A stretch of 63,380 bases of DNA, filler included, from Collodictyon triciliatum (lineage: Eukaryota), in NCBI GenBank assembly GCA_043381765.1. It is 6 parts of 6 records of this genome, joined end to end, with 100 filler letters (N's around TTAATTAATTAA, not from the genome) between each part and the next. Parts side by side here need not be neighbours in the genome. Positions count along the whole stretch, not along the records: positions 41,160 to 51,665 come from JBHJMP010000353.1; 5 more parts are not named here. One strand, written 5' to 3'. Below the pieces are notes generated by a model. It searched no databases, was not told the DNA's origin, and was given only the letters and a program-made list of their open reading frames with translations. Below are positions 9,084 through 51,776 of this stretch, one piece after another (the first letter of the stretch is position 1; every line of letters starts with the position of its first letter). The position numbers and the translations under genes are program-made.

Positions 9084-12206
<3,123 letters not shown>

Positions 12207-16334: not shown

Positions 16335-18123
16335 CCAGGAAGGTAGTCTCTGAGAGGAAACAGGAGAAGGTTGACAGTTACTAAAGCTTTTGTGCAGAGT
16401 CCTTTTAAATGATTTCGTTCCGTCGCGTGAAGAGCAGTATCCAAGTTGGTGGGAAAGCGACTAAGACATAAACAATAATGATAAAAAAAGAAAAAAAAAA
16501 CGAAGAAAAAAACGCGTAACGAGATCGTTCGCAAAAAAAAAAAAAAAGAAGCTGCTTTGCCACAATGTGGCAGAGTTGTTGATCGCAGTCCTGATTATAC
16601 TAATAATTGACTGACTCATTGGCTTCATGGTCTCTGCATTTTGTACACTTGTGTTCAAGCAAGTATGCGTGTGTTGAGCAGAACTGTGGCTTCGCGTGTG
16701 AAACGAGCAGAAAGAAAAAGAACTACTCCCAAGCCCAAAATGCAACCAGAGTTCTGAGAGAAAACAAGTGGCGGATATTCGGGAATATGGCTCGTATTAT
16801 TATGCAAGAAAACAGAGGAAGGCCAAAAGAACGGGTCAATTAGATAATATACAATATCGTCATTGCGTTCGTCTTCGAATGACTCAACAACTCTGCTTCT
16901 CGCTTCTCCATCACCCAACTTTCGTCCACCCGATATTGAATGTGTGATTAATCGTGAATTTTTGTAATTTTATTTTTTTGTTTTGTTGTTTGGCTTGGTG
17001 GCAATTCGGGACATGAAGCGGAATCGAGTGATATGAAATTATGCCCATATGTGGCAGAAGCATGAATTTCTTTCTCTGATCGAGGGTCGGGTCACTCATA
17101 CCATATCATAATTATATTTTTGGATATTATAATATAATCTTATTATTTGCATAATTTAATGACATAAAACATATAATTCATCATAGATTATATCATCATA
17201 TTAAATGATATATATTACATACAATACAAAATGTAGGTCATCTCAGTACCAATTGTGGCTAGATTAACGCCCTTGCAAACGCATTTCACGGTGCGGTAAC
17301 CACAAAGCAAAGCCAGCGAATTAATCTTGACTCGGCACAATCTATTCAGCCAGAGACTTACTCGCTTCAANNNNNNNNNNNNNNNNNNNNNNNNNNNNNN
17401 NNNNNNNNNNNNNNNNNNNNNNNNNNNNNNNNNNNNNNNNNNNNNNNNNNNNNNNNNNNNNNNNNNNNNNNNNNNNNNNNNNNNNNNNNNNNNNNNNNNN
17501 NNNNNNNNNNNNNNNNNNNNNNNNNNNNNNNNNNNNNNNNNNNNNNNNNNNNNNNNNNNNNNNNNNNNNNNNNNNNNNNNNNNNNNNNNNNNNNNNNNNN
17601 NNNNNNNNNNNNNNNNNNNNNNNNNNNNNNNNNNNNNNNNNNNNNNNNNNNNNNNNNNNNNNNNNNNNNNNNNNNNNNNNNNNNNNNNNNNNNNNNNNNN
17701 NNNNNNNNNNNNNNNNNNNNNNNNNNNNNNNNNNNNNNNNNNNNNNNNNNNNNNNNNNNNNNNNNNNNNNNNNNNNNNNNNNNNNNNNNNNNNNNNNNNN
17801 NNNNNNNNNNNNNNNNNNNNNNNNNNNNNNNNNNNNNNNNNNNNNNNNNNNNNNNNNNNNNNNNNNNNNNNNNNNNNNNNNNNNNNNNNNNNNNNNNNNN
17901 NNNNNNNNNNNNNNNNNNNNNNNNNNNNNNNNNNNNNNNNNNNNNNNNNNNNNNNNNNNNNNNNNNNNNNNNNNNNNNNNNNNNNNNNNNNNNNNNNNNN
18001 NNNNNNNNNNNNNNNNNNNNNNNNNNNNNNNNNNNNNNNNNNNNNNNNNNNNNNNNNNNNNNNNNNNNNNNNNNNNNNNNNNNNNNNNNNNNNNNNNNNN
18101 ACTATGTATTTTTTTAATTGAAG

Positions 18124-20733: not shown

Positions 20734-20833
20734 NNNNNNNNNNNNNNNNNNNNNNNNNNNNNNNNNNNNNNNNNNNNTTAATTAATTAANNNNNNNNNNN
20801 NNNNNNNNNNNNNNNNNNNNNNNNNNNNNNNNN
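20734..20833. other. assembly linker N-TTAATTAATTAA-N (also 35426-35525, 41060-41159, 51666-51765, 57207-57306)
   Basis: Identical 100-nt spacer carrying stops in all six frames, found five times. Confidence 0.95.
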
Positions 20834-32751: not shown

Positions 32752-33901
32752 TTAATTGAGGAGATACTGAATGGACGAGCGAAGCGGGGGACTGCGTGTG
32801 GGCACATTTGCCACCGGACGAGTAGGCGGAGGGGCGGCCAAAGCAGCCGAGAGCAGCGCAAGAGTCGAGTAACGCGGCGGGGCGGAGGTTGATGCTGGGG
32901 CAGACTCTGTGCTTTCCGAGTGCGTACTTGTCTGCGCACTATTCTGCGGAAGAGTCTGCCTGGCCAGAGCCTTCTGCAGATGGATCCAGCGGTAGCGGCA
33001 CTGCTGATCGGTCCGCCCGGGAATCGCCGACGCAACGTCCTTCCACAGCCCTTCGCCGATGAGCGCCACACGCTGCTGCAGCCGCTGATCCTCCTCGTCT
33101 GTCCACGCGCCCTGCAGCGGCCATCACGCGTCATGATACCATATGCGTCGAACCATCACAGAAAGCAAAGCAAAGCAAATCATACCTTGCGGATGTCCGG
33201 ACTCAGCACACGCACCCAGCGCTGACAGCATTGCTCGGCCGTGCGACCCGTGCCAACCGCCTAGAATTGGACCGATGTGGAAAAGAAAAGGAAAAGGAAA
33301 AAGAAAATGGATGGGCAAACATGAATCACCATTCATCACACACATAAGGATGATATCATTTTCGATTTCATGATGATGATGATGATGATGATAATGTCAT
33401 TGGACAGACCTTTGCAATGCGCTTCCACTGCTGGCCGCCCAGCTGAACGACTGCCTGACGCAGACGGTCATCCTCCACTGCCGACCACACACGCGGTTTC
33501 CGCCGTGTCTTTGCGTGGGTTGGAGAAATCGGCGCGGATTCATCGCGGTGATCCATTCGCGGCATCTTTTTGGCAGGCTGTCTGACGTCATCATTGTGAT
33601 CATCACTGTGATCGTCCGTATGTGCCGGGGCCGTGAGTCGAGAGTGATGCGCATCCGTCAGAAGCGACAGGCGCTGCTCAGGCGTTTGGAGAGATGGGTA
33701 GGATGCCGTGTGATGGCGTCGGTGTGGATGCCCGTTTTGTGCGAATGGTGCGTCCATGGATGGATTGGATGGGGCAAATGACATATTGGCTGCTCCGCTT
33801 GGTTGGGTGGGAGAGTTGTCTGGAATCTCGTCTGTGTCCGGGTGGGAGAAAAATCGCGGGCGATTTCGGTTGCTGTCTCTGTGAAGGGGAGAAAATGACA
33901 T
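32752..33901 (-). CDS. R2R3-type Myb transcription factor (3 exons; start uncertain)
   Basis: WSAVEDDRLRQAV...WKRIAK|AVGTGRTAEQCCQRWVRVLSPDIRK|GAWTDEEDQRL...WKDVASAIPGRTDQQCRYRW; ends SSIQYLLN*. Confidence 0.92.
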
Positions 33902-36363
33902 GGGGAAGAAAGAAAAGATGCAGGGGTAATTTTGGGATTTAGATGGCAGGCACGGCGACTATTCTGTGGGGGGTTTGTGCGGATTTGTCTCTGGGAATGC
34001 TGGGGAAGTGGATTGTGTGTGTATTTTGTTTTTGAGTGAGATGTGATGTGGATGGAGAGGATGGTCTGCTGTGGTTTTTTTTCTCTTTCCATAGCACCTT
34101 TGATGGGTTTGGCATGAAAGCTAGTGCGATGATGGAACCAGAAGATGATGATTGAAAAAAAAAACAAAACAAAGAAACAGAGAAACAAAGAAAAGAAGGA
34201 AACAAAGAAACAAAGAAAGACAGATAGAAACAAAGAGAGAGAAAGAAAAGGTAAATGAGTTGATTTTAATATTTTCTGTTTTTTTTTGGAGCTCAGAATA
34301 TCACGAGAACCACAGCCCTTGCGTGCGATTCATCAAGCGGGTTTGTTACGGCTATCTCGAGCGAGAGTTATATTGTCACTTGTCGCTGTGAATCCGAGAT
34401 GGTGTGAGGGGTTTTCTTCCATCAACATATTTGCTTCTCGCTTTTTTGTGATCGAAACATGTTGTGAGGATACAGAGCCGAGCAAAATCGCAGCTGACTT
34501 TCGAGACGAAAACAAAATGAACTTGTCACGCATCTTATTGATTCGCAGCCGTGTGCAATAAAAACGCGTGTTCGTTTGTGTTCATCACACTTCGCTGGTG
34601 TTGGGTGTCTTATTCACCAATTTGTATTGGAAATTTTCTTTTTGGTAGTACTTTGGCGATGTTGCAAGCAAAGCAATCGTTTTGAAAAAATAAGCATGTT
34701 TCTTTCATTTTTCTTGGGAGCCGAGGTTACTAATTTACACGAACGAAGAAAATGTGTTTGTCATTGATGATTTCGTTTTTCGAGTGGGAATTGAATAATC
34801 AAATAATCAATGAACAAAATATACTGCTTTATAAGGTATGGGCCATATATAAATCAACCCCAGCAAGTTAGAATAACGCGTTTTAAAACGCATTTTGAAC
34901 ACAAGTGTCATTGTTTATTGCAACAACCAATTTGACAAACAGAACGAAAATGATGTTGCGAAATTTTCGTCAAAGAGCCTTGTCTTGAATTTTCAGTCAG
35001 GATGGCAATAAATGTAATAGTTGAATGAATCCTATGGGAAATTTGGCTTTCCTGTGGAGGTCGATTCTTTCAATATATTTCTTTCCGAATCATTATTTTC
35101 CAAGATTCGCTCTGCTTGCAATATGAAGTTTGTTGTTGAACGCTCAACGATTCCACTTAAAAGAAAAAGGAAAAACTTGCAACATCCCGTGCCTCAAAGC
35201 TCGCCAATCTTCCTCGTGATTCTGCCTCCAGTCTTCGCAAACTCGTGTCTTTAGAGCCGAAAGTCTCGACAAAGCATTGCCAATTGATTCTCGTTGTCAT
35301 CGAGAGCTGCCACTTATTATTTTCATTCCTTTGCCACCAAATCACAGCGAGAAAAAGACACGTGCCTCCAGTATGGTCTCGAAGCGCCTCTGCTGAAATG
35401 CACAAAGAACAGTTGGGGAAGCAAANNNNNNNNNNNNNNNNNNNNNNNNNNNNNNNNNNNNNNNNNNNNTTAATTAATTAANNNNNNNNNNNNNNNNNNN
35501 NNNNNNNNNNNNNNNNNNNNNNNNNATAAAAAAAGAGAGAATAAAAAAAAGAGAGAATAAAAAAAAAAGAGAATAAAAAAAAGAGAATAAAAAAAGAGAA
35601 TAAAAAAAGAGAATAAAAAAAGAGAGAATAAAAAAAGAGAGAATAAAAAAAGAGAGAATAAAAAAAGAGAGAATAAAAAAAGAGAGAAAAAAAAGAGAGA
35701 ATAAAAAAGAGGATGGTCAAGTCGCTATGTTGCGTAAACCGCGGCTCACCAGGAAGCTTGTTGTTGTCAGTGTGACGGAATCTTCTCCTAATTTGTAGGC
35801 TGCGAGTTATTTTTTCTTCAGATTTTGACCTGTGCACACTTTTCATCGCGCTGGGTGTGCAAATTTTTGGATTTGGGCTGGATGGCGGACTCAGTGGCTC
35901 TTGAAGATGAATGACTCGCTTTATGGCCAGGACATGCCAACAAACGCATTGAGGCATCATCGCCCAGAGACCGCCATTTCCGTTTCTAGCATATCGGAAG
36001 CTTGGTACGCAAGTTGAAATCATAATCGCCTTGCTCTGCATCGAAAACGCCACAGACTCGGGATATTCATTCATGCGGCCAGGAAACGAAAGAAGCTGAG
36101 TGCGTAATCATATCCGCTTGCTTTATGAAAACGAGAATACCATCTAGTGTTATTATCATGATTGGTGTCATTGATTAGATGAGTTTTTGGGCAGAGTATT
36201 CAATGCTGTCGTGGGTTGCAACCAAGATGACGTTTTGTTGAGAGACAAGTATATCAAATGCAAAATTTTTTAGGATAATTTCAATAGGGAAAGAAGAATG
36301 TGATAGGGCTTTATAAATGATTCTTGATGTTCTATTCCTTTGGTTTAGAGCATATTATCTAGA

Positions 36364-38661
36364 CTAGTTTGCCGCATTCACAGGTGCCATTGTTTGCAGG
36401 AAATGCAAAGCGTTTTTTGTCTCCATTTCCTTGCGTGTCTCATCCCATCCAAGTCTACTGGCCATTAAACTACACGACAAAAAAAAAAAAAAAAAAGTCA
36501 TGCAAGCCGCTCATTTTATGATAAACAAATTACTGATACCAGTGCGCATAATGAAATGAGCAAGGATAAAGGCGTGAATCGAAAAGAAGTGCCGTGAACA
36601 AATGAAAGCCCATGGATTTTGCAGAGCTTTTATACTTACTCTACCACTCGCGGAAGCGCTCGAACAGCTTCTTTCTGGTCAAGAAATGCGAGCCGTGTGC
36701 GATGGGCAAGAACATCCACAGGGTTGCATGCGTACTCATGGTCTACAGCATACAAGACTTCAGCCTCGAGATAAGGATACGAGGGCGACAGTCGTTGAGA
36801 AAAGCCTTCTTTGTAGAGGTCAGCAACTAGAACAGCCCGGTCTCCTACAGGTTATACTGTTAGATGAGTTTTATCCCTCTCGGTTCAAATCACAATCCTT
36901 GCTCGGATGTATAAGGGGTTGAAAATGTTTTTGGAGGTAATTCACGACGAGAGAGCACCCACCAAACCACCAAAGTACCAAAAAATCAGAACATCAAAAC
37001 AAGATATAGAATGAACATGGTGCAGAAATTATGTGGGTCATTTCTACCGTAGTATTTTGCAAGGTGTTGCGCGATATTGGTCTCAAGTCCGTCTGTTTGC
37101 CATTTTAATATCATGTTTAAATACTATTCATATGAACAAAACAAAACAAAACAAAACAAAACAAAATAAAACAAATTAAAACAAAATAAAACAAAATAAA
37201 ACAAATTAAAACAAAATAAAACAAAATAAAACAAAACAGAATAATAATGAAATAAAATATAACACAATAAAGCAAAACAGAATAATAATAAAATAATAAT
37301 AATCATTTTGATTTTGTAAGGAATAGTTTTTCGACCACTAAAAAGAAATAAAACCACATTATAAAAAAAATAATCAAAGGAATTAATCTGAACCTAATAA
37401 GTTAGAAGAAAATGCAATTGAATATGAAATCGAAAAAAAGAGAGGGAATCCTTTGTACACTTACATAACTGGGCCAATTTGGTAAACAGAGCCAAATCGT
37501 ACTGATGCGCTCCAATTAGTTTAAGTTGACTGGTAAGGCAGGGATAGACATTTTTAAATTGACCAACCTGAGCAGCAAATTGATTTAGAGTTGCAGGACA
37601 ACTATACTAATATAAATAAAAAATAATGGTATACTAGTAGCAGTACTTAAATAGTGCATCAAAAATATCCCTTTCAAGGAGTTATAACAAGAAGTGTCAT
37701 TGCTCACTTGAATTGCTTTGTCAAGAGTGTCTTCAGCCATTTGCCGGTAAGTCGTCCATTTTCCACCGACGACTGTGACCATTTGGTTCGGGTGCACATA
37801 GACAACATGGTTGCGGCTGACTTGTGCTGTGTTCTTTGAGTTTGGATCCCTCGCCAGAGGACGAATTCCGCTCCAGGCAGACTGAGAAAGAGTCAATCGA
37901 AGATAAGTCAAATGACATGGCTTTGTTACATTTTTTTTTAGGAAAAGAAAATAAAAAGAAAATAAAAAGAAAATAAAAAGAAAATAAAAAGAAAATAAAA
38001 AGAAAATAAAAAGAAAATANNNNNNNNNNNNNNNNNNNNNNNNNNNNNNNNNNNNNNNNNNNNNNNNNNNNNNNNNNNNNNNNNNNNNNNNNNNNNNNNN
38101 NNNNNNNNNNNNNNNNNNNGAAAATAAAAAGAAAATAAAAAGAAAATAAAAAGAAAATAAAAAGAAAATAAAAAGAAAATAAAAAGAAAATAAAAAGAAA
38201 ATAAAAAGAAAATAAAAAGAAAATAAAAAGGAAATAAATAGGAAATAAAAAGGAAACAAAAAGGAAAAAGAAAAAAGAAAAGGGAGATGAAGGAATCGTC
38301 ATGTATAGATTGCAAAATACTCGCACATTTTTTTTTATTCTTCCTTAAAACACTCGCACATTATCTTTGTGACATTTTCTTGGATATCGTTATGTTATAC
38401 AAATCAAAAGTCAATAGGGATTTATGCAAAAAGAAAAAAAAACACTCAGAAGAAAGGAATGAACGACATTTGAAGATTTGAAAAGGTAAAAAAAAATAAT
38501 TCGTCAATATACCAACATTTTAACTATTGCTATGATACCTTCACATCCTCACGCCTTACAGGAATACCAAGATATGCCGATATTTCACCCAATATTGCCT
38601 GTTTATCATATGAGAAACATATTATGGCAAAATAAAGTAAATACATAAATAAATAGTAAGT

Positions 38662-38707
<46 letters not shown>

Positions 38708-40886
38708 CGTTGAATGCACAGTCCCAGACGATAATGCAAAAATAATGTCGGTTCAGTACTTGGATGTCGTTTTCGCGAGGGTAAGGGTAAGGAGTCAGGT
38801 CACACGGGTCATCTGTGGTTCCAGCAAGGGTCATACCTTCCCACTACGATATCCAGGTTATGCTTAGATGATTTGAATCAAGGTGCATAACACATCACAC
38901 GTCCTTTTAAACGGATATGATGTTCTTTTGAGAATGGAGTAATGAATAAACCAGAGCTGTTCCAAGCCATAATATGCAATATAAGGAATAAGCTAATACA
39001 AACAGGGAGCAGAAACATAACGCGGCCGTCTCGTGTTTCAGGTACAATCATTCCGGTTGAGTCAGGCGAATAATAGTTTGGTAGGATAATCTAAAGGAAC
39101 CAAGTCAAATATATAAATAAATTTCTATCATATATTTATATTAATCTGAAACCAAAAATTTATTCAAAAATGATGTTATTTTCTGTTTCTTTGGGAATAC
39201 AATAACTTCTCAGATCAAGATAATTTATTTAAAAACATATTAAAAATATGCATTTACATGAACTCCAGCACTCGTTTGAACAAGAGGTTTTGTTTGTTCT
39301 TCGCCCATTTTGATAACTCCATCTTGCATATATTTACAGGAGGGACTGATAAATAAATAGCATAAAATACTTCAATGTATCCACCGGTTAAATACCAGAG
39401 AAGCATCCAGTAGCGTTCACAACGACCTTGGCATAAATTTCCCAGGTCTCATTGCTGATATTCTGTGCAGTTTATTTTAGATATATGTTTCTATATATAT
39501 AGCAGAGATGACTTTTAAATTCCTGTCGCTTTATTTCCTTAATATTTATTCTTATAAATTTATACAATGACGGGGACATTTCTGCGTGAAGAAAAAAGAG
39601 TAGAAAAAAGAACAGGAAAAAAAGATGAACTATATATCATAAAACATACATCGCGAACACGTGCTCCACATAGTTTTCCGGATTCATCAGCAAGCAGCTC
39701 GGTGACTTCGACATAGTTTGCAATGGCAGCACCCTAACAAGCGTAGATACAAATACGATGACTTTTTTTTTTTAGAATAAAATAAAATTTAACGGTGTGG
39801 TATCATATGTAAAGAAAGTTAAGGAGAAAAAAAAGGCCTCACACGACAACTTCTCAAAAGTGCATGACTAAATAATACTCTGTTCGAAATTATAGGACGA
39901 GATTGAAAGAGTTACATATAATACATGACCAGTATGTTACCATGGAGGCGGCAGTCATGGCTATGCTCACACACAATCGAGCGTCATTCATTTGCCCATC
40001 AAAGTAAACCACAGCACCTTTCAAATTGCTTTTTCCTATCTGCACAACGATTAATGAATGAATTTTGTTTTATCAAATGAATTATGTTGTTCCTATAGTA
40101 ATCGAGGCTTATAGCTTCAATTCAAGGCTCAATACACTTTTCACTAATTTTTGCGTGAGAACTTTCACACACGTTAAATTAATACATGCATGCATTTTTA
40201 AAAAAGACCATCGGGAATCTTTGCAGAGTCTCTTCTCGGGTGAGAAAATGACTACGATAAAGTTTACTCGTTCCTGCAACCAAATCGTACATTTTTGCAC
40301 CAGCCCAGTAATACGGAATCTAATATTTTATACATGAGCGGGCTTGAATGCTATTTCTTTTTACTAACAAATTATCGAGAACTCCAGTGTGATATTAGGT
40401 AGAGGATTGGGTGATATTGTTTTGTTGAGTGTATATGCAAGGTCTTTGAGAGAGCCAAAACCTTCCACCACGAGTACATCGGTGTCATGATGGGTAATGC
40501 GTTTGTCAGATGAGGAGCATTCTTGAGAATCACAGAGCGTTCATGTAGTGCTTCGTAGACCAAGTGCAGCTCATCACGGTCCAAATGGAGCACAGCCTTT
40601 TCCAAGTAACGCACGCCTTGGGCAATACAGATTACAGATTTCATCATGATTGAAATGCAAATCCAAAAGGAGGGAATACTAAAAGAGAATAAAAAGTAAG
40701 GAAGAAGGGAATAAAGGGATCGAATATAAACCTCCGTGCACCAGCTTGGTGCTTCTTGATGAAGTACCAGATGCAAAGTCGTATCTTTCCACAAGGGCAC
40801 AGTTGAGACCTCTTGCCACGGCATCCAAAGCCACTCCAGTGCCTGTTGCACCACCGCCAATGACAAGCACGTCAAAAGCCTTCTTC
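36364..40886 (-). CDS. GPD2: mitochondrial FAD glycerol-3-phosphate dehydrogenase; 5' end truncated at the linker
   Basis: [88 protein letters not shown] introns throughout. Confidence 0.96.
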
Positions 40887-41221
40887 CTAAGAAAATGACA
40901 CGCCACCAGACAAGACATAGAAATGAAGCAGAATGAAACAGAAGAAAGCAGAAGAAAGCAGAATAAAACAGAATAAAACAGAATAAAACAGAATAAAACA
41001 GAATAAAACAGAATAAAACAGAATAAAACAGAATAAAACAGAATAAAACAGAATAAAACNNNNNNNNNNNNNNNNNNNNNNNNNNNNNNNNNNNNNNNNN
41101 NNNTTAATTAATTAANNNNNNNNNNNNNNNNNNNNNNNNNNNNNNNNNNNNNNNNNNNNTTTTTTTGTCCTATCATATTTAGCGAAAATACCACGCGGAG
41201 TCTGATTGTGATTCTTCCTAG

Positions 41222-41401
41222 GGCCTCCTCTTCTGGGCAAACCACTTGCTCAGTGCTGCTTCTCTCCAACTACAGAATATGGACGAGGACCTTGGAGACG
41301 GCTTTCTATTGCTGAAGCTAATCGAAGTAGTTACCGCATTGAAGATTGATGGGTTCCATTCTCGTTCGACCCTGTAAGTGTCCTCCCCACATGTTATCAC
41401 C

Positions 41402-41480
<79 letters not shown>

Positions 41481-44400
41481 TTTTGAAATGAAAACCTTGG
41501 GTGATAGCGGTATGAAGCAGAGAGCGCAAAGTCTGTAGTTGTATTTGTAAATACAACAACTCATATTATCTACTTTTCTGTCATAAAGCCGTTACGTGAT
41601 ATTTTTTAATTGAAAGATTATAATTTATTGTACGCACACCACATAAAACAGAAATGAGAGGATCACAGATGAGGCCAAAGTACAAGAAAACCAAGACATT
41701 ATTCACAAGTGGTTTATGGAGAACTGCTCTGCTCATGGGATCGAGTCCCCATCAAATGGAAAGGGTCTGGCATATCACTCACTTATTTAATTAACAGTCA
41801 CATTCACCACGCACCACTTATCATGGAGGTACTTATACATACAGTGAAGTATGCTTATCAACAAAATAACGGAATCTCTCCATAGTTGCACCCAAAGCAA
41901 CTCTGAGATATCTAGCTAGGGTCGCTGCTTTTATGCCTCAAGTAAGGGTCAATTGCTCTTTCATTTATTCGTCAAAAATTAGCCATGCAACCAAAAAAAC
42001 AAAAACAAGTAGTCACCCAGACTCATAGGTTAATGAAGCCAGCTCTCTCTGGAATATTCTTCGATCCCATCTGTTCGACGGTCGGTTGCTCATTTTCATA
42101 TTGTATCATTATTTTGTTTGCTTTTGTTTGATTTTGTTTGATTTATATTTTATTCTTATACTAATTGTCTTAAACACCAGATTCGGAGTCCATCACCCTT
42201 TTATTCCTCGCTATCTCTTTTAAAAACTTGGATTTGTAATTTTTAATTGTTTACTCTACCCATCAATCATCAATGGCGATTATTTGCAGAGCACTGAACC
42301 ATTTTCTTAGCCTTGATAGGTCTGCATCATATCTGGAAAAAAGCATGGAGTTGGCCCGAGCCGAGCAGAGTTATGCAAAAATTGGATTCATTATCCACTA
42401 CTATCTGGGAACCATTTATCATTTGGATGATATGTAAATTGCTTATTTCCATTTGAATACCTAGTGCTTAAATCTTACTCAAATGAAAACTCTTCTGTGA
42501 ATTTTATTCTTTGGTATTCACTGGATTTCTTTTAAAGGTTCCAGCAGGCTCTCGAAGAATATACAAGAGCTCTTTCTCTCGTTCATGATAATGAAGGAGA
42601 CCATAACTCGCACACTGCGCTCCTACATGGTGTAATTGGGGACTTATATCTGTCCCAAAACAAGTACTTGATACAACTTCAAGCGTATCCGTATTATCTC
42701 GATATTAAATGCAAAAAAATATTTTATTTTTCTTCGCATATCGGTATCGTATACTTGAAGAGAGCATCCATATTAAATGTGAATTTACCCATTAGATTGT
42801 CTGAGTCATCGACCGAATATTCCATATCGATGAATAGCTATATTCAAATCGGTGATGATGAAAGCATACCTGCTGCAATCTCCACCATGAGACTTGGTGA
42901 TGTGCTGTTGGCTGAAAAAAGGTAGTAGTCTAACGCACGATATCCCGGCCCCCTCCTTTTTTTTATTTTTATTTTTTTATCTATAATCTGCTTTGTATGA
43001 TACTAATAATTGAAAACAATCAAGATTTGATGCAGCCAAGGAAATTTTTGAAAAAGCCAAAAGTTTTCTCGTGAAAGCACCCGAGGTCAAGAAGTACCAC
43101 CTTGTTCAAGTCGATGTACGAATTGCCCAAACCTTCTTGGCGACCAACAAGTTTGTTCTTAAGAAATTACTCTATTACTTCTATTTCTATTCATTTTCTT
43201 TTCCTTTTCCTTTTCTATTCATTTTCCTTTCCTTTCCTTTCCTTTCCTTTCCTTTCCTTTCCTTTCCTTTCCTTTCCTTTCCTTTCCTTTCCTTTCCTTT
43301 CCTTTCCTTTCCTTTCNNNNNNNNNNNNNNNNNNNNNNNNNNNNNNNNNNNNNNNNNNNNNNNNNNNNNNNNNNNNNNNNNNNNNNNNNNNNNNNNNNNN
43401 NNNNNNNNNNNNNNNNTTTCCTTTCCTTTCCTTTCCTTTCCTTTCCTTTCCTTTCCTTTCCTTTCCTTTCCTTTCCTTTCCTTTCCTTTCCTTTCCTTTC
43501 CTTTCCTTTCCCTTTCCTTTCCTTTCCCTTTCCTTTCCTTTCCCTTTCCTTTCCTTTCCCTTTCCTTTCCTTTCCTTTCCTTTCCTTTCCTTTCCCTTTC
43601 CTTTCCCTTTCCTTTCCCTTTCCTTTCCCTTTCCTTTCTTTCCCTTTCCTTTCTTATTTCATTAAGCACCGATTTCCCCCAATTACTTACAACTCTTTAA
43701 CAGAGTACCAGAAGCTTTATCTCTCGTAAAACAAGTACATGAGGCCCTCACCCACCCACGGGAAGATTGGACATGCCAAAATGTGGAAGCTCTAGAGTTA
43801 ATTGGAGATACATACCATGAGTTGAAAGAGTAATTACTTATTTCTTTTATAAGTGCTCTATTCTTGATATTGTAATATTTTGACCCGCCAGTTACAATTA
43901 ATCTTTATTGTTAAAAATATTTTGTTTATTCACAAAGTCCTTTATGTCCATATGGTCATCGCATTATTATTCTCCTCTTGCCTCTGAATTGAACAAAAGA
44001 AAGAAAAACTCTGTTATATTTTTTTCACATGGTTTTCCATTCCAATAGATTCAATGAAGCATTGACTATTTACCAGAGAGTACTTGAAGAACGAAAAATT
44101 TTGAATGGGACGAGTCACCCTCGCTATGCTACATCTCTAGAAAATGTTGCACGTACATACTTCGAGCTCAGAAGGTAAAGTTGGCCGTTTCAGGAAAAAA
44201 CAAAAACAAATCACCATCGAACGAATACTTATATATTCTTACACAAAAATTTACCAGAATTTATCAGCCCCTTTTATATGTTTTTGATTCATCTCAATAA
44301 TTTCATAAACATCCCCCTTTACTATTTTAGTCATGAAGGACTGGGGATATATTTTACAGAAGCGTCCAAAATTCGCTCAGTATCCGGTTCCATCTTCAGC

Positions 44401-47400
44401 CTCAAAGATAAAACTCAAATAGAAGGTTTGATTGAAGTTATGAAATCCAAAAGCGAGCACAAAATATCCATACTACTTTACAAGACACTGTTTACTTGCT
44501 TATCAAAGTCTTTCGGATACACAAGCCCTCATGTGTGGAGGTTATGTACAACTGCTGATACATTTTTTAGCTCTATGAAAGCAAATGAAGACCTTGTGAA
44601 ATTCTGGGAATACATCAGAGATAGATACTCCAAAAAACTAGGGTGGGCACACTCCATAGTGCTAAACTCCTGTGAATTTATCTTTAGTCATTCAGTTACC
44701 TTGGGTTCAAGAAAGGAAGTTGCTGAATACACAGGCGTTATGAACTTCATACGCGATATTATTCCTAATGCAAACCTCGATGCCAATTGGAATCGTCACC
44801 AAATAATCTTCTATTTGCACCAAATTGTTTTAATGTCGAGAGAAAACGAAACCTTTTCAAAGGCTTCTTCTGAAGCACTTACTCTCTTAAATTTCATGAA
44901 TGTTCCACTTCACGGATTAGATTTGTCCCGAGTCCATATACCAAATGCTAACTTAAGCAATTCAATTATCAGCGGGGTTAATTTTACAGGAGCAAATTTG
45001 ACAGGAGTTGACTTCACCAATACATTGATCGAAAATTCATCGTTTAAAGAAGCGAACCTGGATAGCATCAAGCTTAGCAAATCAAAAGATAAACTAGAGG
45101 GTCACATGAATATGGTCAATAGTATATGCCACTATACTGGTCCAAACAACGAGAATTGGCTGATTTCTGGGGGAGGCGATAACCGAATCATCGTCTGGGA
45201 GATGTCCACGGGCAGCCTCCTCAAAAAAATCGAACGGCATACTGGGGAAATAACTTCAGTGATTGAAATACATGACTCTCAAGGGGAATCACTCATTGCC
45301 ACAGGAAGTAAAGACAAAACTATCCGGATTTGGGACATCACCACTTCAGAGGAAAAGAAATGCATTGAGACAACTTCTGAAGTGCACAGTATTTGCAAGG
45401 TGTCTGGTCCAAACAAGGAGATTTGGGTGGCATCTTCTAACGAGGACAACAAAGTATACATATACGACGCTGAATCGGGTGCCCAAGTGAAGGAAATCTC
45501 TTTAAAAATAGCGTATCCACGCATGCTCCAACCACTTTACGGTCCAAATGGAGAAGATTGGGTTGCATTAGCTGGGTTTGGGGGTATTGAGCTCCTCGAA
45601 ATAGCAACATCTAGTCATGTTAAACTACTTGAAGGACATTCTGGTGATGTTAAAGCCTTATGTAGCATCGAAGGAGAAAATGGAGAGCAATGGTTGGGGT
45701 CCTCTGGTAAGGATGGAACCATACGAATTTGGGACTACATAGCTGGAAACCAAATACAGCTGATTCACGGGCATGATGAATCAGCTACAACTCTTATTAC
45801 TGCCCGTGGTTTGGGTGGGGAGTATTTACTCATATCTGGAAGCAGTGACACTTCTGTGCGTGTGTGGGATGTAAAAACGCACAAGAAGCTAGATATGCAT
45901 GCAGTTTACACTGGCACAATAACATGTTTATGTATCGTCAAGGGTCCAGGCAATGAGGTGTTAATAGCTGCGGGATGCAGAGACCATTCTATTAGACTAT
46001 TTGACTTACAGTCTGATAACCAGATCAAAGTCCCAGAAGTCAAGAAGGAGATTATTGTTTGTGTTTGTTCTGTTAAAGGCCCAGATGGAGAGCCATGGCT
46101 GGCGTCAGGAAGTACAGATGGAACCATAAATATATGGGACTTGACGACCGGCTTTCTCATAAAGAAAATCGAAGGACATTCCGACACAATATACACGATT
46201 ATTTCTGCACAAGGGCCTAACGGAGAGGAATGGATTGCATCTGGAAGTAGGGATGAGACCACTCGTGTTTGGAATTTGATAAGCAGCAGCCAAGTCTACA
46301 TATTGAAGGGCCACCAGTCATCCGTCCGTACCCTTGCAGCCGCCAGAGGGCCAAATGGGGAAAATTGGATTGTTTCTGGAGGCAGTGATTCATACATGAT
46401 TCTATGGGACTTAGCAAACGGACAGGAAGTAAATAAATTATCTGGAAACGATACAACAGGAGCATGTTTTGTGCAAGGCCCAAATAATGAATCATGGCTG
46501 GTTTCAGGCAGCAGTTACGGCAAAGTCACATTGTGGGATTTGGGTAGCGGCAACATAGTTCATTCTGAAAGCGGCCATAATTTCTCAATTTACGGTATTT
46601 GCGCTGCCCAAGGGCCGATAGGACAGACGTGGGCTGTATCTGCCAGTGACGGTGATGAAAACAACTTGGTTGTTTGGGACTTGACAAAAATGGAGAAGTT
46701 GGTTACATTATCTGGCCACTCTGTAGGCGTATATTGTGTATCAAGTTTCAAAGGTCTCAAAGGAGAAACCTTACTCGCATCCGGTGGACGCGATGGTACA
46801 GTTCGTGTATGGGATATAGTGAATAAGAAGCAGAAAAATGTTTTTGAAGGTCATAGTGATTATGTGTGGAGTGTCTGCTCTACTACGAATGCGAATGGTG
46901 ATGTAGCAGTTATTTCTGGGGGTTGTGATCAAACAATTCGTTTATGGAACGTAAATACAGGGAATTGCATCGTTACCTTAGATTCACAAATGGATACCAT
47001 TCAAAAAGTAGCTCCAGTGAAAACCCCTACGGGCAGAAGAGGAATTATATCAAGAAGTTTTTACGGAGTCCTCACATTGTGGGATATTTCTAATGGGAAA
47101 ATACTCTCAGAAGTATCTATCGCTGATATTGTGCTTACCGATGGGCAAAAACTGATCAACAAAAATGATGGACATGTCTTGGCCACATTCAACAGCCCAG
47201 ATTACGCATCGGATTTCTTTGAAGACTATAAGAATCTCAAAAATCCTCAAAGAATCCTGAAGCAGAGGAAATTACAAGGGAATGATATTCATTTAGAGGA
47301 TACCATAAATTTGAGTTTGTACAATAAAATGCGATTGTTTTCTATTGGTGCTACGTCAGTCGACGCTGATTTTACAAACTATTGTGAAAAAGGCAGCTAT

Positions 47401-50400
47401 ACAAAGGCACAATCAAATATGATGGCTAAATGCTACGAAAATGGATGGGTGGTGGATAAAAACCCTGAGCTATCTCTTTATTGGAAAGAAATAATCCCCT
47501 TGAAAATGTCAAAGGACTATGAGGGTCTAAAAGAGGCAGCACAAAAAGGCTCCAGGTATGCTTTCGAAATCTTGAAAGAGGCGGCAAACATTAAAGAAGA
47601 TGTTATAGGGAGTTTCAGCGTAAAATCTGGAGAAAAATACACAAACCCCACAGTTGCTTCTATGGTTGCCGACTGCTATGAAAACGGGTTCGGTGTCGAA
47701 AAGGACCTTGACCAATCTGCAGAATACTATCAAAAAGCGAATGATTTTGCCAACCTGAAACGGTTAGCCATGATTGGGTCTAAAGTGGCCTTCAAAATTT
47801 TACTTGACTTATCGTCCATTGTCGATGATATTCTCCAGTATGGAGGTTGGGGAGCAAAAATAGGCGAGACTTATCGCTACCCCGATGCGCTCTATACATT
47901 GGCTCAATCGTATGAAAACGGATGGGTGGTTGAAAAGGATTTGAAAGAGGCCAGTAGATGGTATGTCAGAGTAAAAAAAATTGACGATTTGAGGCGACTA
48001 CTTTCTGGGGGCTCTGCAGAAGTATTTGAACTCATGAAGGAGTTATCAGAAGAGAAAGAGGACGTCTTAAATTACGGCTCAAAAGTAGGGGAGAAAATCA
48101 AATACCCTGAAGCATTTTCACTTATTGCATCTTGCTATGAAAACGGATGGAGCGTGGAAAAAAATCTTAAAGAGTCTGTCGAATGGTATCAAAAAATCGG
48201 CGACTTTGACGGGTTAAAACAGCTGGCATCTGTGGGTAGTATGGATGCTTTCTCGGTATTGCAACAAATGTCGATGTCCAAGATCGATATATTTAAATAT
48301 GGAGACTGGGGAGATAAAGTAGGGGAGCGCTTTCAATATCCCAAAGCAGTTTCGTCTCTTGCTGAGTGTTATTTGAACGGTTGGGGCGCGGATAGAGACT
48401 CGAAAATGGCTTCTGAATGGTATGGAAAACTGGAAGAGTTTAATCAGCTCAAGGACATGGCAAAAAATGAGATCAAAGAGGCGGTTGATGAGCTGATAAA
48501 TCTTGCGAGCTTAAAAATCGACATTATCAGCAATGGCGGATGGGGAGAGAAGGTCGGTGAAAAGTTCAAATATACAAGCGCTGTACAGAACTTGGCAGAG
48601 TGTCTGGAGAATGGATGGGGCGTCGAGGTCGATTTAAAGAAGGCAGTTGGTTATTACATAGCCCTATTATCTTTCGATGACCTGAAAAGACTCGCCGAAT
48701 TGGGAACGAAGTATGCATTCGATGCTTTACTTGAGCTGGCTATGTCATCAGAAGTTGAGCTCGACCAAAACGGATTGAAAAAGAATGAAATCTTCAAAAA
48801 TCCTCAGGCTGTTTCCTTAGTAGCTGAATGCTTCGAAAATGGGTGGGGTACTGAGAAGGACCTTGAGAAAGCATTAGAGTTCTACAGAAATTCTGAAAAA
48901 TTCGAGAAGCTACAGAATTTCGCGAAACAAGGAATGAGCAGGGCGTTTGAAATGCTCAAAGAGGCTTCGGACGTTAAAGAAGACGAGCTTGACTACTATA
49001 AGAACAAAGTTGGAGAAAAGTACAAGTACCGACAAGTTCTTCCCTTACTAGCAGAGTGCTACGAAAAAGGTTGGGGAACTACCTTGAATGAACAAATAGC
49101 TTGTGAGTTGCATGGAAAAAATGAGAACTTCCATGTGCTTCAACGTATGGCCAAGGAGGGGTCAACTAATGCTTTTGACATTTTGAAGGAATACTCTTTG
49201 AAGAAAGGATTGCAGCGTGATGCATATACTGGAGGAATATTGGGTGAAACATACTTTTTCTCGTACTTGGTTGATTATGTAGCAAGTTGCTACGAGAACG
49301 GATGGGGCACAGAAAAGGATGCGGAGCAGGCGAAGTTTTGGACTGACATTGTCCCATTGAGGACATCTTACAACTATTCCAGACTGAAAAAATTGGCGCA
49401 AGAAGGTTCATTAGTTGCATTTTCGATGCTGCAAGAGATATCAGAGATTAAATGCGATGTTATGCGCTACAAAGAGAAGATTGGCGAGAAGTATAGATAC
49501 CCTGAAGCTATCTCTGCCATCGCCGAATGCCTTGAGAATGGTTGGAGTGTCAGCAAAGACAAGGAAAGTGCCGCCGATATGTTTCTTAGAGCTGAAAATT
49601 GGGAAGGATTAAAAAGATTAGCAAGAGATGGATTTTCGAAAGCATTTGCGCTTCTGGTGAACTTGGCTGAAATGAAGGAAGAGATCCTTAATTATAACAA
49701 TATCAAAACCGGTGAACGACAAAAGTACCCTGAAGTTGTCATTATTGTCGCTCAGTGCTTCGAAAACGGATGGGGAGCCGAGAAAGATTCGAAAAAAGCA
49801 CTTGAATGGCATGGCATAGCTGGGCACTTTGATTTGCTAAAGCAGCAGGCTGAGCAGGGTTCAAATGCCGCCTTTGGTGTCTTGGAAAAAATGGCGAGCG
49901 TGAAAGAAGATATCGTGGCGAGCAAAGGTCAGAAAATTGGAGAGAGCAATAAATATCCAAACGCTGTTGGATGTGTTATCGAGTGCTATGATAATGGCTG
50001 GGGAGTGGAGCAAGACAAAAAGAAAGCAATCGAGTGGCAAGCAAAGGCTGAAAACATTGATGTTCTGAAAGATTTAGTGGTGGGAGGCTCGCAAGATGCT
50101 TTCGATGTGTTGAATTACATGGCAAACAAGAGAGAGGTTTCCTTCAATAGCTATTATGGTTCCAAGACAGGGGAAAGATATAAATATCCTCAAGCGGCTT
50201 CTGTTCTCAATGAGTGCTATGTGAATGGCTGGAGTGTGGAGAAAAATGAGGAAAGGGCATCTTTCTGGGGAGTCCTCGTCCCTCTTTATCAAAGTGAGGA
50301 TTTCAACGGATTAAAGGAGCACGCAGAAAAAGGCTCTGCTGAGGCATTCAAGTTTATTCTAGAACTGGCTGGGATGAAAGAAGATATACTCGATGGCGAG

Positions 50401-50529
50401 CAGATTGCTGGGGAAAGCTACAAACACCCACAGGCGCACCAAGTTCTGTCGGAGTGCTATGAAAATGGCTGGGGTGTGGAGAAGAACCCCGAAAAGGCTG
50501 CTGAGTGGAAGGCAAAAAATCCTCAATAG
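41222..50529 (+). CDS. giant repeat protein: CH-like domain, about 6-7 TPR, pentapeptide repeats, about 15 WD40, 14 SEL1-like repeats; 5' end truncated
   Basis: LLFWANHLL...DEDLGDGFLLLKLIE (CH-like); TPR exons at 42320-44174; terminal exon 44331-50529 open for more than 2000 codons. Confidence 0.88.
43223..43652. repeat. (TTTCC)n microsatellite spanning a gap, in a TPR intron
   Basis: Direct reading. Confidence 0.95.
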
Positions 50530-50789
50530 CTGTCGCACCGATTCCTTCGTTAGTTGCTTTGGATTTGGAGCTGCGAACTTGGCGTTCAGAGCAAACTAAC
50601 AAAGAATAAAGCAAGAAAAAAAAAAAAGACAAGATAAAGATAAAAGAAAGATAAACCATGAATAATTGTCGCCTTACATCCGTAGGTACTGCAATTATGT
50701 CACACCTATCAGAAAGGAGTGGATATATGCGATAAGTAACTAATATCAATGACTTTGGAGTTTTATTCGACATTATACCTCATTCACAC

Positions 50790-50853
<64 letters not shown>

Positions 50854-51776
50854 GATGCCGCTAGACACATCCCAATGCTTGACGTATACTCGATACTTGG
50901 GCTAAAATTCTGATAAAGGACGAAGAAACTGCCTAATTTTGACGATGGTCTTCGAAGCGATATTAATGAGCTATACTAAGAAGGATAAATGAACCTCGCA
51001 GCTGGGCTGTGATGTAAGTCATGAGTAGAAGACTGAAGGGCTGCATCACTTGTGCAAGACTTACAAAAGAAGTACTCTGATAGTTTATGATAAAAGAAAA
51101 CAGCTTTCTCCTTCTTGCCTATTTGTATTGTTTTTTTTCCCCTGAAAGTACTCACCCTTTTGGGTACGCTTAGTTTTCTTGCTCGTTCATTCCCATCACA
51201 GCAACTCGCAAAGGTAAAGATGGTGAAGAGGAGGGGAGCTGGGGTACAACTAGGTGAGCTTTGTGAATAAACTTGCATCGTTATTGTATGCTGCTTCTTT
51301 CATTTTTAAACCCCTCTGACAAAGCCAAGCTTGAGTATTTATGTCGCTTGTGAGCGTCGCAGTGAGTCGCTGGCTGTCAAAACAAAGACGCACCTCCACA
51401 AAGAATCGACCCAATTCGGCCAAACGTTTTTTTTTTTTTAATTCGAATTGAGAGAATAACACATCAAGGCCAGGCAAAGTCTGCGCGATTGTTTCCCTTC
51501 CTCTGACGTTCGTTGTTCCTTTCATATTAAATATTTCATTTATTCTTATTGTTGTTCTTTTTCTTTTCTTTTTCTTTTTCTCTTTCTTTTTCTCTTTCTT
51601 TTTCTCTTTCTTTTTCTCTTTCTTTTTCTCTTTCTTTTTCTCTTTCTTTTTCTTTTTCTTTTTCTNNNNNNNNNNNNNNNNNNNNNNNNNNNNNNNNNNN
51701 NNNNNNNNNTTAATTAATTAANNNNNNNNNNNNNNNNNNNNNNNNNNNNNNNNNNNNNNNNNNNNAAAAAAATAAA

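What the first reader, a model, noticed from the sequence alone, without database searches (positions are those of the whole stretch)
41222..50529. Chimeric receptor-like giant protein: CH-TPR fused to an NLR-type pentapeptide-WD40 module and a SEL1-like array, with no NTPase
Seen: ASSEALTLLNFMNVPLHGLDLSRVHIPNANLSNSIISGVNFTGANL (~44860-45075), about 15 WD40 repeats, the cap LQGNDIHLEDTINLSLYNKMRLFSIGA (~47271-47352), then 14 SEL1-like repeats. Known (from recall): the A..NA.T.L...DL..I.IP.ADL / WD40 / GLS..N..LL.QRGA module normally follows a NACHT domain in Mortierella, Mycoavidus and ciliate NLR-like proteins. Here no Walker A is visible; a CH-like domain and TPRs take its place. Inference: an undescribed, possibly cytoskeleton-anchored sensor or scaffold with several kinds of repeat binding surface, and a candidate protist immune receptor.
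Basis: partly seen in the sequence, partly recalled or inferred. Interest (0 to 1): 0.72.

Follow-up and report, generated by a model that had tools for sequence, protein, structure and literature searches.

The report
NLR-like repeat protein lacking its NTPase
A freshwater protist gene encodes a giant protein made only of repeat domains (TPR, pentapeptide, WD40, Sel1); its closest relatives are NLR-type receptors, but this copy lacks their nucleotide-switch core, so it probably acts as a partner or decoy and not as a receptor on its own.

Summary
The sequence features are real and sit at the stated coordinates. One 2,329-codon ORF runs from ATG 42273 to the stop at 50529 through six GT-AG introns. 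It encodes six TPR exons, a TPR-like helical region, a pentapeptide beta-helix, 15 WD40 repeats, a cap motif and 14 Sel1 super-repeats of about 77 aa, with no Walker A. RNA contigs from freshwater metatranscriptomes and colinear homology both support the 44174/44331 junction.

The helical region has only three relatives among 1.84 billion representative proteins, all from Diphylleia rotans. One of them, P0125, reads CH-DUF4062-NACHT-TPR-helical-pentapeptide-WD40-cap-Sel1. So CH and TPR flank the NTPase in this family and do not replace it.

The window's CH exon is 46% identical to the CH domain of P0125. About 500 nt separate the CH exons from the first TPR exon, and no DUF4062 or NACHT sequence lies there. 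No RNA links CH to TPR.

The window is a chain of short records. This record begins 62 nt before the CH exon, so the gene is cut at its 5' end.

Verdict: a switch-less derivative of a lineage-specific NLR-like family. It is a new variant of a known kind. An assembly artefact is not excluded.

The parts
41060..41159 (.). Record linker (44 N + TTAATTAATTAA + 44 N). The record that holds the finding runs from 41160 to 51665.
   Evidence: Five such linkers occur in the window. Reading them as joints between separate records is my inference.
41222..41373 (+). CH-domain exon 1, the N-terminal half of a CH domain. An AG acceptor at 41220-41221 means earlier exons lie off the record.
   Evidence: Pfam CH E 5e-4, profile 7-50/109. 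PDB alpha-actinin CH1 3e-4. 46% identity to P0125 residues 193-238, E 3.8e-7. Alignment score 111 against 24.7+-4.6 for shuffles, 0 of 2000 reaching it. The donor at 41373|41374 is used in an RNA contig.
41652..41764 (+). CH-domain exon 2. The start is RNA-supported. The end is uncertain: the frame stops at 41788 and the only GT before that is at 41765.
   Evidence: Joint 41373|41652, GT..AG, in one 151-nt contig of run X1. Colinear with P0125 residues 240-262, score 48, with 1 of 2000 shuffles reaching it. No Pfam hit on its own.
42273..42433 (+). First TPR-region exon (T1). It is either the start exon from ATG 42273 (in-frame stop at 42237-42239) or an internal exon from the acceptor at 42290.
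   Evidence: Open frame and a phase-2 GT donor. Only its last ~15 residues fall inside the colinear BLAST alignment to P0124 and P0125. Alone it has no significant similarity. No RNA cover.
42538..42663 (+). TPR exon T2 (126 nt, one 42-aa unit)
   Evidence: TPR_12 0.0041 and TPR_MalT 0.0022. GT-AG and in frame.
42796..42921 (+). TPR exon T3 (126 nt)
   Evidence: An RNA contig of run X2 joins 42921|43025. In frame. No Pfam hit alone.
43025..43150 (+). TPR exon T4 (126 nt)
   Evidence: Same RNA joint. In frame. No Pfam hit alone.
43704..43829 (+). TPR exon T5 (126 nt). The intron before it holds a microsatellite and a 100-N gap at 43317-43416.
   Evidence: No Pfam hit alone.
44049..44174 (+). 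TPR exon T6 (126 nt)
   Evidence: TPR_12 1.1e-6 and TPR_10 3.7e-6. A contig of run X4 covers exactly this exon and continues with the first 15 nt of the large exon.
44331..44892 (+). Start of the large exon: TPR-like helical region, the family-specific part
   Evidence: phmmer gives 3 hits among 1.84e9 representatives, all Diphylleia rotans. A low-confidence AF2 model (pLDDT 53) shows 8 helices. ESM features give weak TPR leads.
44890..45084 (+). Pentapeptide-repeat beta-helix
   Evidence: Pentapeptide 2e-10 and Pentapeptide_4 1.1e-9. 35 of the 120 hits are homologous here.
45080..47100 (+). 15 WD40 repeats, enough for two propellers, each with a GPNGE.W-type insert
47272..47352 (+). Cap motif after the WD40 array
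   Evidence: Homologous to P0002 residues 2394-2430 and P0032 residues 1307-1343.
47395..50526 (+). 14 Sel1-type super-repeats of about 77 aa, followed by the TAG stop at 50527-50529
   Evidence: Sel1 5.5e-52. 14 cores. Mean pairwise identity 38%. Aligns to P0032 residues 1744-2158 at 7e-25. Stop codon.

Best explanation
The locus is a derivative of a lineage-specific NLR-like (STAND) family found in Diphylleia-related protists. The full form of that family is CH - DUF4062 - NACHT - TPR_12 - helical region - pentapeptide - WD40 - cap - Sel1.

Shown: (1) TPR exons T1-T6 and the 6.2-kb exon form one intact 2,329-codon ORF, and parts of it are present and spliced in environmental RNA. (2) The CH exons upstream are homologous to the CH domain of the full-length relative. 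(3) The roughly 860 residues that lie between CH and TPR in that relative (DUF4062, NACHT, and the segment before the TPR array) have no counterpart in this record.

Inferred: the product is a repeat platform without a nucleotide switch. It would consist of a TPR solenoid of about 10 hairpins, a pentapeptide beta-helix, two WD40 propellers, and a Sel1 solenoid expanded from the single C-terminal Sel1 unit seen in the relatives. STAND proteins need the NTPase to switch and oligomerise, so this protein most likely binds the same kind of ligands or partners as its NACHT-bearing paralogs and acts as their adaptor, competitor or decoy, not as an autonomous receptor.

Whether the partial CH domain is translated in the same polypeptide is open. 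I put it near 40%.
For: The ORF and splice model are 6,990 nt with no internal stop and all introns GT-AG. Residues 40-560 of the model are colinear with P0124 residues 212-768 (2e-55) and P0125 residues 1149-1665 (1e-53).

RNA: joints at 41373|41652 and 42921|43025, exon T6 continuing into 44331, and seven further contigs at 99+% identity on the large exon, from 4 runs of 3 studies.

Family: the helical region has 3 relatives among 1.84e9 representatives, P0002, P0124 and P0125, all from D. rotans. The first 1000 residues of P0125 hold CH at 4.6e-11, DUF4062 at 8.5e-11 and NACHT at 1.3e-5. CH exon 1 is 46% identical to P0125.

No tblastn match to P0125 residues 290-1100 better than E 0.36 exists anywhere in the window, and there is no Walker A. 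P0002, labelled a complete ORF by its source, also starts at the TPR array and has no Walker A. The cap plus one Sel1 unit ends P0002, P0124 and P0125, and a Sel1 array also follows NACHT-pentapeptide-WD40 in P0032 and P0060.
Against: The record is cut 62 nt upstream of the CH exon, and no whole genome is held, so no paralogs or upstream exons could be seen.

No RNA covers T1 or T2, or links CH to TPR. T1 alone has no significant similarity.

The RNA support is one contig per joint, from metatranscriptomes. DNA carry-over cannot be excluded for the unspliced pieces.

A short-read assembly could have collapsed across the low-complexity stretch at 42100-42150. Two RNA contigs fit only 28-33 nt there, and one of them runs on unlike the record.

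P0002 may be a 5'-truncated transcript contig.

The partner or decoy role rests on no test. Both AF2 models were of low confidence.
Confidence: 0.55

Rival explanations
1. Assembly artefact. The real gene is an ordinary full-length member of the family (CH-DUF4062-NACHT-TPR-...-Sel1), and the NTPase exons were lost by a collapse or chimeric join in a fragmented short-read assembly.
For: The assembly is highly fragmented: records of 5-15 kb, 100-N gaps, and introns full of microsatellites. There is a low-complexity stretch at 42100-42150 where RNA contigs fit only partly. The closest full-length relative has the core exactly between the two parts that are present here.
Against: There is no N between 41373 and 42538. 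At least 2.6 kb of unique coding sequence would have to vanish without trace. The 41373|41652 joint in RNA agrees with the record. The D. rotans relative P0002 also lacks the NTPase.
Confidence: 0.12
2. Two separate units. The TPR-to-Sel1 gene starts at ATG 42273, and the CH exons are the remnant or tail of another transcript and are never part of this protein. There would then be no CH fusion and no cytoskeletal anchoring.
For: RNA joins CH exon 1 to 41652. That frame ends at 41788, and its only GT donor (41765) cannot reach T1 in frame without an extra exon. No second half of a CH domain was found in 7 ORF pieces between 41508 and 42220. P0002 starts at the equivalent point, with Met followed by TPRs. 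An in-frame stop lies 33 nt before ATG 42273.
Against: CH and TPR-...-Sel1 lie in one ORF in P0125, so finding them next to each other on the same strand here is unlikely to be chance. CH exon 1 spliced to 42290 would be in frame, and 19 hypothetical one-exon bridges exist. All known introns of the gene are phase 2, as is the CH exon 1 donor.
Confidence: 0.25
3. A decaying pseudogene: a dead NLR copy that has lost its core and has no function.
For: The core domain is missing, and the CH domain is incomplete with an early stop in the exon-2 frame.
Against: The 2,329-codon ORF is uninterrupted, and six canonical introns that preserve the frame are retained. Spliced RNA is present in environmental samples. 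The 14 Sel1 units have diverged to 27-49% identity while staying open.
Confidence: 0.08

Closest known systems
Diphylleia rotans EukProt protein P0125 (EP00002 P032243/P032246, 2,619 aa), uncharacterised
   Same: CH domain (46% identity to CH exon 1), TPR_12 array, the family-specific helical region, pentapeptide lead, WD40 repeats with a GPNGE.W insert, cap motif and C-terminal Sel1 unit, all in the same order.
   Different: It has DUF4062 and a NACHT/NPHP3_N-type P-loop (AESGIGKS at residue 656) between CH and TPR. It has more than 15 WD40 repeats (about 20 by eye, not counted by any search) and only one Sel1 unit. The window's gene has none of the core and 14 Sel1 super-repeats. Identity over the shared part is only about 28%.
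Diphylleia rotans P0002 (EP00002 P040976, 2,520 aa)
   Same: It starts with TPR_12 repeats and has no Walker A. It then has the helical region, pentapeptide, WD40, cap and one Sel1-like unit. It is the best overall hit at E 4e-208.
   Different: It has no CH, many more WD40 repeats and no Sel1 array. It may be a 5'-truncated transcript.
NACHT/NB-ARC-pentapeptide-WD40 proteins of Reticulomyxa filosa, Paramecium, Mortierellaceae and bacteria (names as given by the sources), and D. rotans P0032 and unnamed P0060, which add a Sel1 array
   Same: A homologous pentapeptide lead followed by WD40 (35 of 120 hits). P0032 and P0060 also carry Sel1 repeats that align to the window's array. P0032 shares the cap.
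   Different: 32 of the 35 have a Walker A upstream. They lack the TPR_12 array and the helical region (0 of these hit residues 19-205).
Classical STAND/NLR receptors with WD40 or TPR sensors (Apaf-1, fungal NACHT-WD40 and NB-ARC-TPR NLRs, NPHP3), recalled from general knowledge
   Same: A repeat 'sensor' arm made of TPR and/or WD40. The relatives' NTPase matches NACHT, nSTAND1 and NPHP3_N.
   Different: The defining NTPase is absent here. The combination of pentapeptide, 15 WD40 and 14 Sel1 in one arm is not a described NLR arm in the searches I ran.
NB-Sel1-like-repeat fusions in Klebsormidium NLR-like genes (PMC7145615, passages read)
   Same: It is a precedent for Sel1-like repeats attached to an NLR-type gene.
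   Different: Different NTPase clade (NB-ARC), no pentapeptide or WD40, and the NTPase is present.

Membership tests
STAND / NLR-like NTPases (NACHT clade) | P-loop NTPase domain (NACHT) with Walker A | tested here: not met
   GxxxxGK[ST] does not occur in the large ORF. No tblastn match to the DUF4062/NACHT part of P0125 anywhere in the window. No NACHT among the 25 Pfam families listed for P0001 (44 passed the threshold) or in the pieces scanned. Caveat: the record is cut at its 5' end.
STAND / NLR-like NTPases (NACHT clade) | C-terminal super-structure-forming repeat arm (TPR, WD40 and the like) | tested here: met
   TPR_12, pentapeptide, WD40 and Sel1 by Pfam.
Diphylleid CH-DUF4062-NACHT-TPR-pentapeptide-WD40-Sel1 family (P0125 type, unnamed) | Family-specific helical region between the TPR_12 array and the pentapeptide repeat | tested here: met
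   phmmer: P0002 1.9e-21, P0124 2.2e-10, P0125 1.6e-5, and nothing else among 1.84e9 representatives.
Diphylleid CH-DUF4062-NACHT-TPR-pentapeptide-WD40-Sel1 family (P0125 type, unnamed) | N-terminal CH domain of the same type | tested here: inconclusive
   Exons 1 and 2 are homologous to P0125 residues 193-262. The last third of the domain was not found, and no link to the TPR exons is shown.
Diphylleid CH-DUF4062-NACHT-TPR-pentapeptide-WD40-Sel1 family (P0125 type, unnamed) | DUF4062 + NACHT core | tested here: not met
   Only about 500 nt lie between the CH exons and T1.
Pentapeptide-WD40-cap module | Pentapeptide lead, WD40 array and C-terminal cap motif, in this order | tested here: met
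   The cap matches P0002 and P0032. My stricter cap pattern found it in only 5 of 35 module-bearing hits.
Sel1-like repeat (SLR) proteins | Repeated Sel1 helical hairpins | tested here: met
   Pfam Sel1 5.5e-52. 14 cores at a period of 75-81 aa. The model is all-helical but of low confidence.
Calponin-homology domain proteins (actin or microtubule binders) | Complete CH fold of about 109 profile positions. F-actin binding usually needs a CH1-CH2 tandem (recalled). | tested here: not met
   Only profile positions 7-50 score, below the Pfam cut-off. There is no second CH. The rest of the domain was not detected.

The most novel reading that the evidence does not exclude
This is a naturally 'decapitated' NLR that is still in use. 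In a relative of Diphylleia (CRuMs supergroup), a member of an undescribed receptor family (CH-DUF4062-NACHT-TPR-pentapeptide-WD40-Sel1) has lost exactly its signalling core. It keeps an intact, expressed 2,329-codon sensor arm whose terminal Sel1 unit has been amplified 14-fold. It may still carry a CH stub. It would work as a decoy, inhibitor or co-receptor for its full-length paralogs, a protist counterpart of paired or truncated NLRs in plants and animals.
Probability: 0.3. Interest if true: 0.65.

Novelty: new variant of a known kind. Interest (0 to 1): 0.45.

Why it matters
NLR-type receptors are studied almost only in animals, plants, fungi and, lately, bacteria. This locus and its Diphylleia relatives point to a separate family in a deep-branching eukaryote lineage. 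That family has an unusual N-terminus (CH + DUF4062) and a composite sensor arm (TPR + pentapeptide + WD40 + Sel1). My literature searches found no paper describing it. An expressed copy without the NTPase would be a natural test of what an NLR sensor arm does on its own. The finding is also a caution: the 'missing NTPase' sits in a record that is cut at its 5' end, in a very fragmented assembly.

Tried and rejected
- The metagenome scan with the N-terminal 273 aa matched 38 pattern stretches. Only 1 was a weak relative (33% identity over the pentapeptide part, L001), which was of no use.
- The third homolog search, with CH exon 1 against longer proteins, returned nothing at E<=1e-4. P0125 itself exceeds that search's 2,000-aa ceiling.
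- Pfam on 7 ORF pieces between 41508 and 42220 found no second half of the CH domain.
- A candidate 'last CH helix' in another frame (41799 onward) is not significant against P0125: 1580 of 2000 shuffles reach its score. I dropped the frameshift idea as unsupported.
- Enumerating splice paths from CH exon 2 to T1 gave 19 hypothetical bridges, too many to be informative.
- T1 alone shows no significant similarity to P0125, P0124 or P0002, so the deletion breakpoints cannot be mapped.
- AF2 on single sequences gave the helical region plus pentapeptide at pLDDT 53.4 and the cap plus 5 Sel1 units at pLDDT 41.1. Only secondary structure was used, and no fold search was run because the models are too poor.
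- The ESM Atlas gave only weak TPR leads, with a best score of 0.87 and recognition below the usual level.
- My first motif patterns for the lead and cap were too strict, matching 1 and 2 of 120 proteins. I replaced them with a BLAST-anchored count.
- RNA runs: parts of the stretch without cover (T1, T2, T5, 41765-42289) say nothing either way.
- No complex prediction was run.
- Supplements of papers were not opened. Those of PMC7145615 might list further NB-Sel1 architectures.
Full report
**What the window is.** The window is not one piece of chromosome. It holds 17 runs of N: ten 44-N runs that form five linkers of the shape 44 N + TTAATTAATTAA + 44 N, six plain 100-N gaps, and one 730-N gap. 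I read the five linkers as joints between separate records; this is inference. On that reading the finding lies in a record of 10,506 nt (41160-51665) with one internal 100-N gap at 43317-43416.

**Checking the observation.**
- The large ORF 44278-50529 is 2,083 aa.
- Both quoted peptides are present, at 44863-45000 and 47272-47352.
- Pfam on the ORF gives WD40 at 1.5e-60, many beta-propeller families, and Sel1 at 5.5e-52.
- Pfam on the first 273 residues of the exon gives Pentapeptide at 2e-10 and Pentapeptide_4 at 1.1e-9.
- Fifteen WD40 units with a period of about 45 aa align with each other (mean identity 27%). Most carry a GPNGE.W-type insert.
- Fourteen CYENGWG-type cores are spaced 75-81 aa apart. 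They define 14 Sel1 super-repeats with a mean identity of 38% and a range of 27-49%.
- GxxxxGK[ST] is absent.
- The CH-like exon at 41222-41373 scores CH at 5e-4. That is 20.7 bits, below the cut-off of 26, and covers profile positions 7-50 of 109. It also matches 37 PDB chain sequences at E<=1; those listed are mostly CH-domain actin-binding proteins, with alpha-actinin CH1 best at 3e-4.

The CH match is only the first half of a domain.

**Gene model for the TPR exons and the large exon.** Reading the sequence and testing it in a script, the exons are:
- T1: 42273 (or 42290)-42433
- T2: 42538-42663
- T3: 42796-42921
- T4: 43025-43150
- T5: 43704-43829
- T6: 44049-44174
- the large exon: 44331-50529

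Together they give a 6,990-nt ORF of 2,329 codons with no internal stop and only GT-AG introns. T2 to T6 are each exactly 126 nt, one 42-residue TPR unit, and all the introns are phase 2. Only 2 of the 6 TPR-exon pieces hit a TPR family on their own: 42539-42661 at 0.004 and 44050-44172 at 1e-6.

Residues 40-560 of the model align colinearly with two Diphylleia proteins: P0124 residues 212-768 (2e-55) and P0125 residues 1149-1665 (1e-53). The tblastn alignments of both run straight across the 44174/44331 intron.

**RNA evidence.** Four metatranscriptome runs from 3 studies of aquatic, freshwater and lake water hold 6-10% of the sampled words of 41160-46000. When laid on the stretch, most pieces are 99+% identical:
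- One X2 contig joins 42921|43025.
- One X4 contig covers exactly 44049-44174. It continues with 15 nt that occur only once in the window, at 44331, followed by what I recognise from memory as Illumina adapter.
- Seven more contigs lie on the large exon.

The RNA support is one contig per joint, and unspliced pieces could be DNA carry-over.

**What family it belongs to.** The whole-ORF search found 1,227 proteins at E<=0.001 among 8,000 scored candidates, and the WD40 repeats dominated the result. Splitting the ORF and comparing each part with the 120 listed hits gave:
- Helical region before the pentapeptide repeat (residues 19-205): matches only P0002.
- Pentapeptide lead: matches 35 of 120.
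- Cap: matches P0002 and P0032.
- Sel1 array: matches P0032 (7e-25), P0060 and the tail of P0002.

Of those 35, 32 have a Walker A upstream of the pentapeptide lead. The exceptions are P0002, P0065 and P0108.

An exhaustive phmmer search with the 187-aa helical region against 1.84 billion representatives found only three proteins: P0002 (1.9e-21), P0124 (2.2e-10) and P0125 (1.6e-5). All three are EukProt transcriptome proteins of Diphylleia rotans, as is P0032.

**The informative relative.** P0125 is 2,619 aa. Pfam finds CH at residues 191-277 (4.6e-11), DUF4062 at 379-470 (8.5e-11), and a NACHT/nSTAND1/NPHP3_N P-loop domain at 618-845 (NACHT 1.3e-5). By eye and by the regular-expression and BLAST checks, these are followed by TPR_12 units, the helical region, the pentapeptide lead, more than 15 WD40 repeats (about 20 by eye), a cap and a single Sel1 unit.

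P0032 has a NACHT at residues 462-632 (1.3e-5), then pentapeptide, WD40, cap and a Sel1 array.

In this family, CH and TPR flank the NTPase. They do not replace it.

**The CH exons and the missing core.**
- CH exon 1 is 46% identical to P0125 residues 193-238 (E 3.8e-7; alignment score 111 against 24.7+-4.6 for shuffles).
- An X1 RNA contig joins 41373 to 41652 with GT..AG ends. The peptide from 41653 is colinear with P0125 residues 240-262 (score 48, with 1 of 2000 shuffles reaching it).
- That frame reaches a stop at 41788, and the only GT before it (41765) cannot reach T1 in frame without a further exon. Nineteen hypothetical one-exon bridges exist and none has evidence.
- CH exon 1 spliced directly to 42290 would be in frame, but RNA shows the 41652 acceptor in use.
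- No remainder of the CH domain was detected in 7 ORF pieces between 41508 and 42220.
- Nothing in the window matches P0125 residues 290-1100. The best match is a spurious one at E 0.36 in another record.
- An AG acceptor directly before 41222, only 62 nt from the record start, shows that earlier exons lie off the record.

**Organism.** A PSP1-domain gene in another record of the window (11499-12203; Pfam PSP1 7.7e-33) has its best relative in D. rotans at 58% identity. The next D. rotans protein and fungal proteins are near 44%. Together with the family that is found only in Diphylleia, this places the organism as a relative of Diphylleia but not D. rotans itself. The 99+% RNA matches come from freshwater samples.

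**Interpretation.** The locus is best read as a member of this NLR-like family that lacks the DUF4062-NACHT core. It keeps an intact, transcribed sensor arm whose terminal Sel1 unit has been amplified to 14 super-repeats.

STAND proteins use the NTPase to switch and oligomerise; this is established knowledge of the class, recalled here. A copy without it cannot be an autonomous receptor. The most likely role is as a ligand-binding or adaptor subunit: a partner, competitor or decoy of the full-length paralogs. That step is inference.

P0002 of D. rotans also starts at the TPR array and has no Walker A. This suggests that such forms are a normal part of the family, although P0002 could be a truncated transcript.

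**Rivals.**
- Assembly collapse hiding the core exons (about 0.12). There is no N in the interval, but there is low-complexity sequence at 42100-42150 where two RNA contigs fit only 28-33 nt.
- CH exons not part of this protein, with the gene starting at ATG 42273 (about 0.25). This is compatible with the main reading apart from the CH.
- A dead pseudogene (about 0.08). The 2,329-codon ORF, the retained splice sites and the spliced RNA argue against it.

**Literature.**
- 'NACHT + pentapeptide repeat + WD40' gave 5 papers. None is on this architecture. In PMC7159879 I read passages that name pentapeptide repeats among superstructure-forming modules of bacterial conflict systems.
- 'Diphylleia + NACHT' gave 1 irrelevant paper.
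- 'calponin homology + NACHT + STAND' gave 9 papers, irrelevant by title and abstract.
- 'NACHT + Sel1 + WD40 + protist' gave 3 papers. In PMC7145615 I read passages that report NB fused to Sel1-like repeats in Klebsormidium.
- Two further searches gave nothing specific by listing.
- Supplements were not seen.

So I found no description of the family or of an NTPase-less member. These searches cover open-access text only.

**Structure attempts.** Both single-sequence AF2 models were poor. The first (pLDDT 53.4) shows eight helices, then a beta-helix, then beta-strands. The second, the cap plus five Sel1 units, is all-helical at pLDDT 41.1. Neither was good enough for a fold search. ESM features gave only weak TPR leads.

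**Verdict.** The novelty class is a new variant of a known kind. Interest is moderate (0.45), because the key claim of a lost NTPase rests on a 5'-truncated record in a fragmented assembly, and because the function is inferred.

Noticed in passing
window 20734-20833, 35426-35525, 41060-41159, 51666-51765, 57207-57306: Five linkers of 44 N + TTAATTAATTAA + 44 N. The window seems to be a chain of six short records, so genes on either side of a linker need not be neighbours in the genome. There are also six 100-N gaps and one 730-N gap (17371-18100).
   Followed up: partly
window 42538-44174: Five consecutive exons of exactly 126 nt, each one 42-residue TPR unit, all separated by phase-2 GT-AG introns. 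This one-repeat-per-exon layout suggests growth by exon duplication.
   Followed up: partly
window 41395-41489 and 43172-43660: Long microsatellites inside introns: (TTTC)n, and (CCTTT)n around a 100-N gap. Similar arrays occur in other records (for example 10856-11200, 37585-38300, 40930-41059). They probably cause the fragmentation of the assembly.
   Followed up: no
window 40682-40900 (-): N-terminal exon of an FAD-dependent oxidoreductase (Pfam DAO 5.3e-16), which looks like glycerol-3-phosphate dehydrogenase by eye. It lies in the neighbouring record.
   Followed up: partly
window 11499-12203 (+): Gene with a PSP1 C-terminal domain (7.7e-33). Its best relative is Diphylleia rotans at 58% identity, with fungi near 44%. 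I used it to place the organism.
   Followed up: yes
window 33371-33958 (-): ORF with a Myb-like DNA-binding domain at its C-terminal end (7.7e-7).
   Followed up: partly
window 60556-61706: A stretch with GC about 0.56 against about 0.37 elsewhere. It has overlapping long ORFs on both strands, one rich in RD/RE/RG dipeptide runs. Nature unknown.
   Followed up: no
P0124 (D. rotans, 1,219 aa) versus P0125 residues 903 onward: P0124 begins with Met in the segment after the NACHT domain of the P0125 type. It then has TPR, helical region, pentapeptide, fewer WD40 repeats, cap and one Sel1 unit. It is either a truncated transcript or a second naturally shortened form.
   Followed up: no
P0060 (unnamed NCBI record, 2,359 aa): Precomputed Pfam lists NACHT, pentapeptide, WD40 and Sel1 in one protein (Walker A at residue 703, pentapeptide lead at 1080, Sel1 at about 1851-2259). 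A stretch near residue 480 looks TIR-like by eye; I did not test that. Its organism is unknown.
   Followed up: no
window 50530-51665: Three minus-strand ORFs of 91-139 aa lie downstream of the gene (50357-50773, 50979-51278, 51253-51525). None has a Pfam match.
   Followed up: partly
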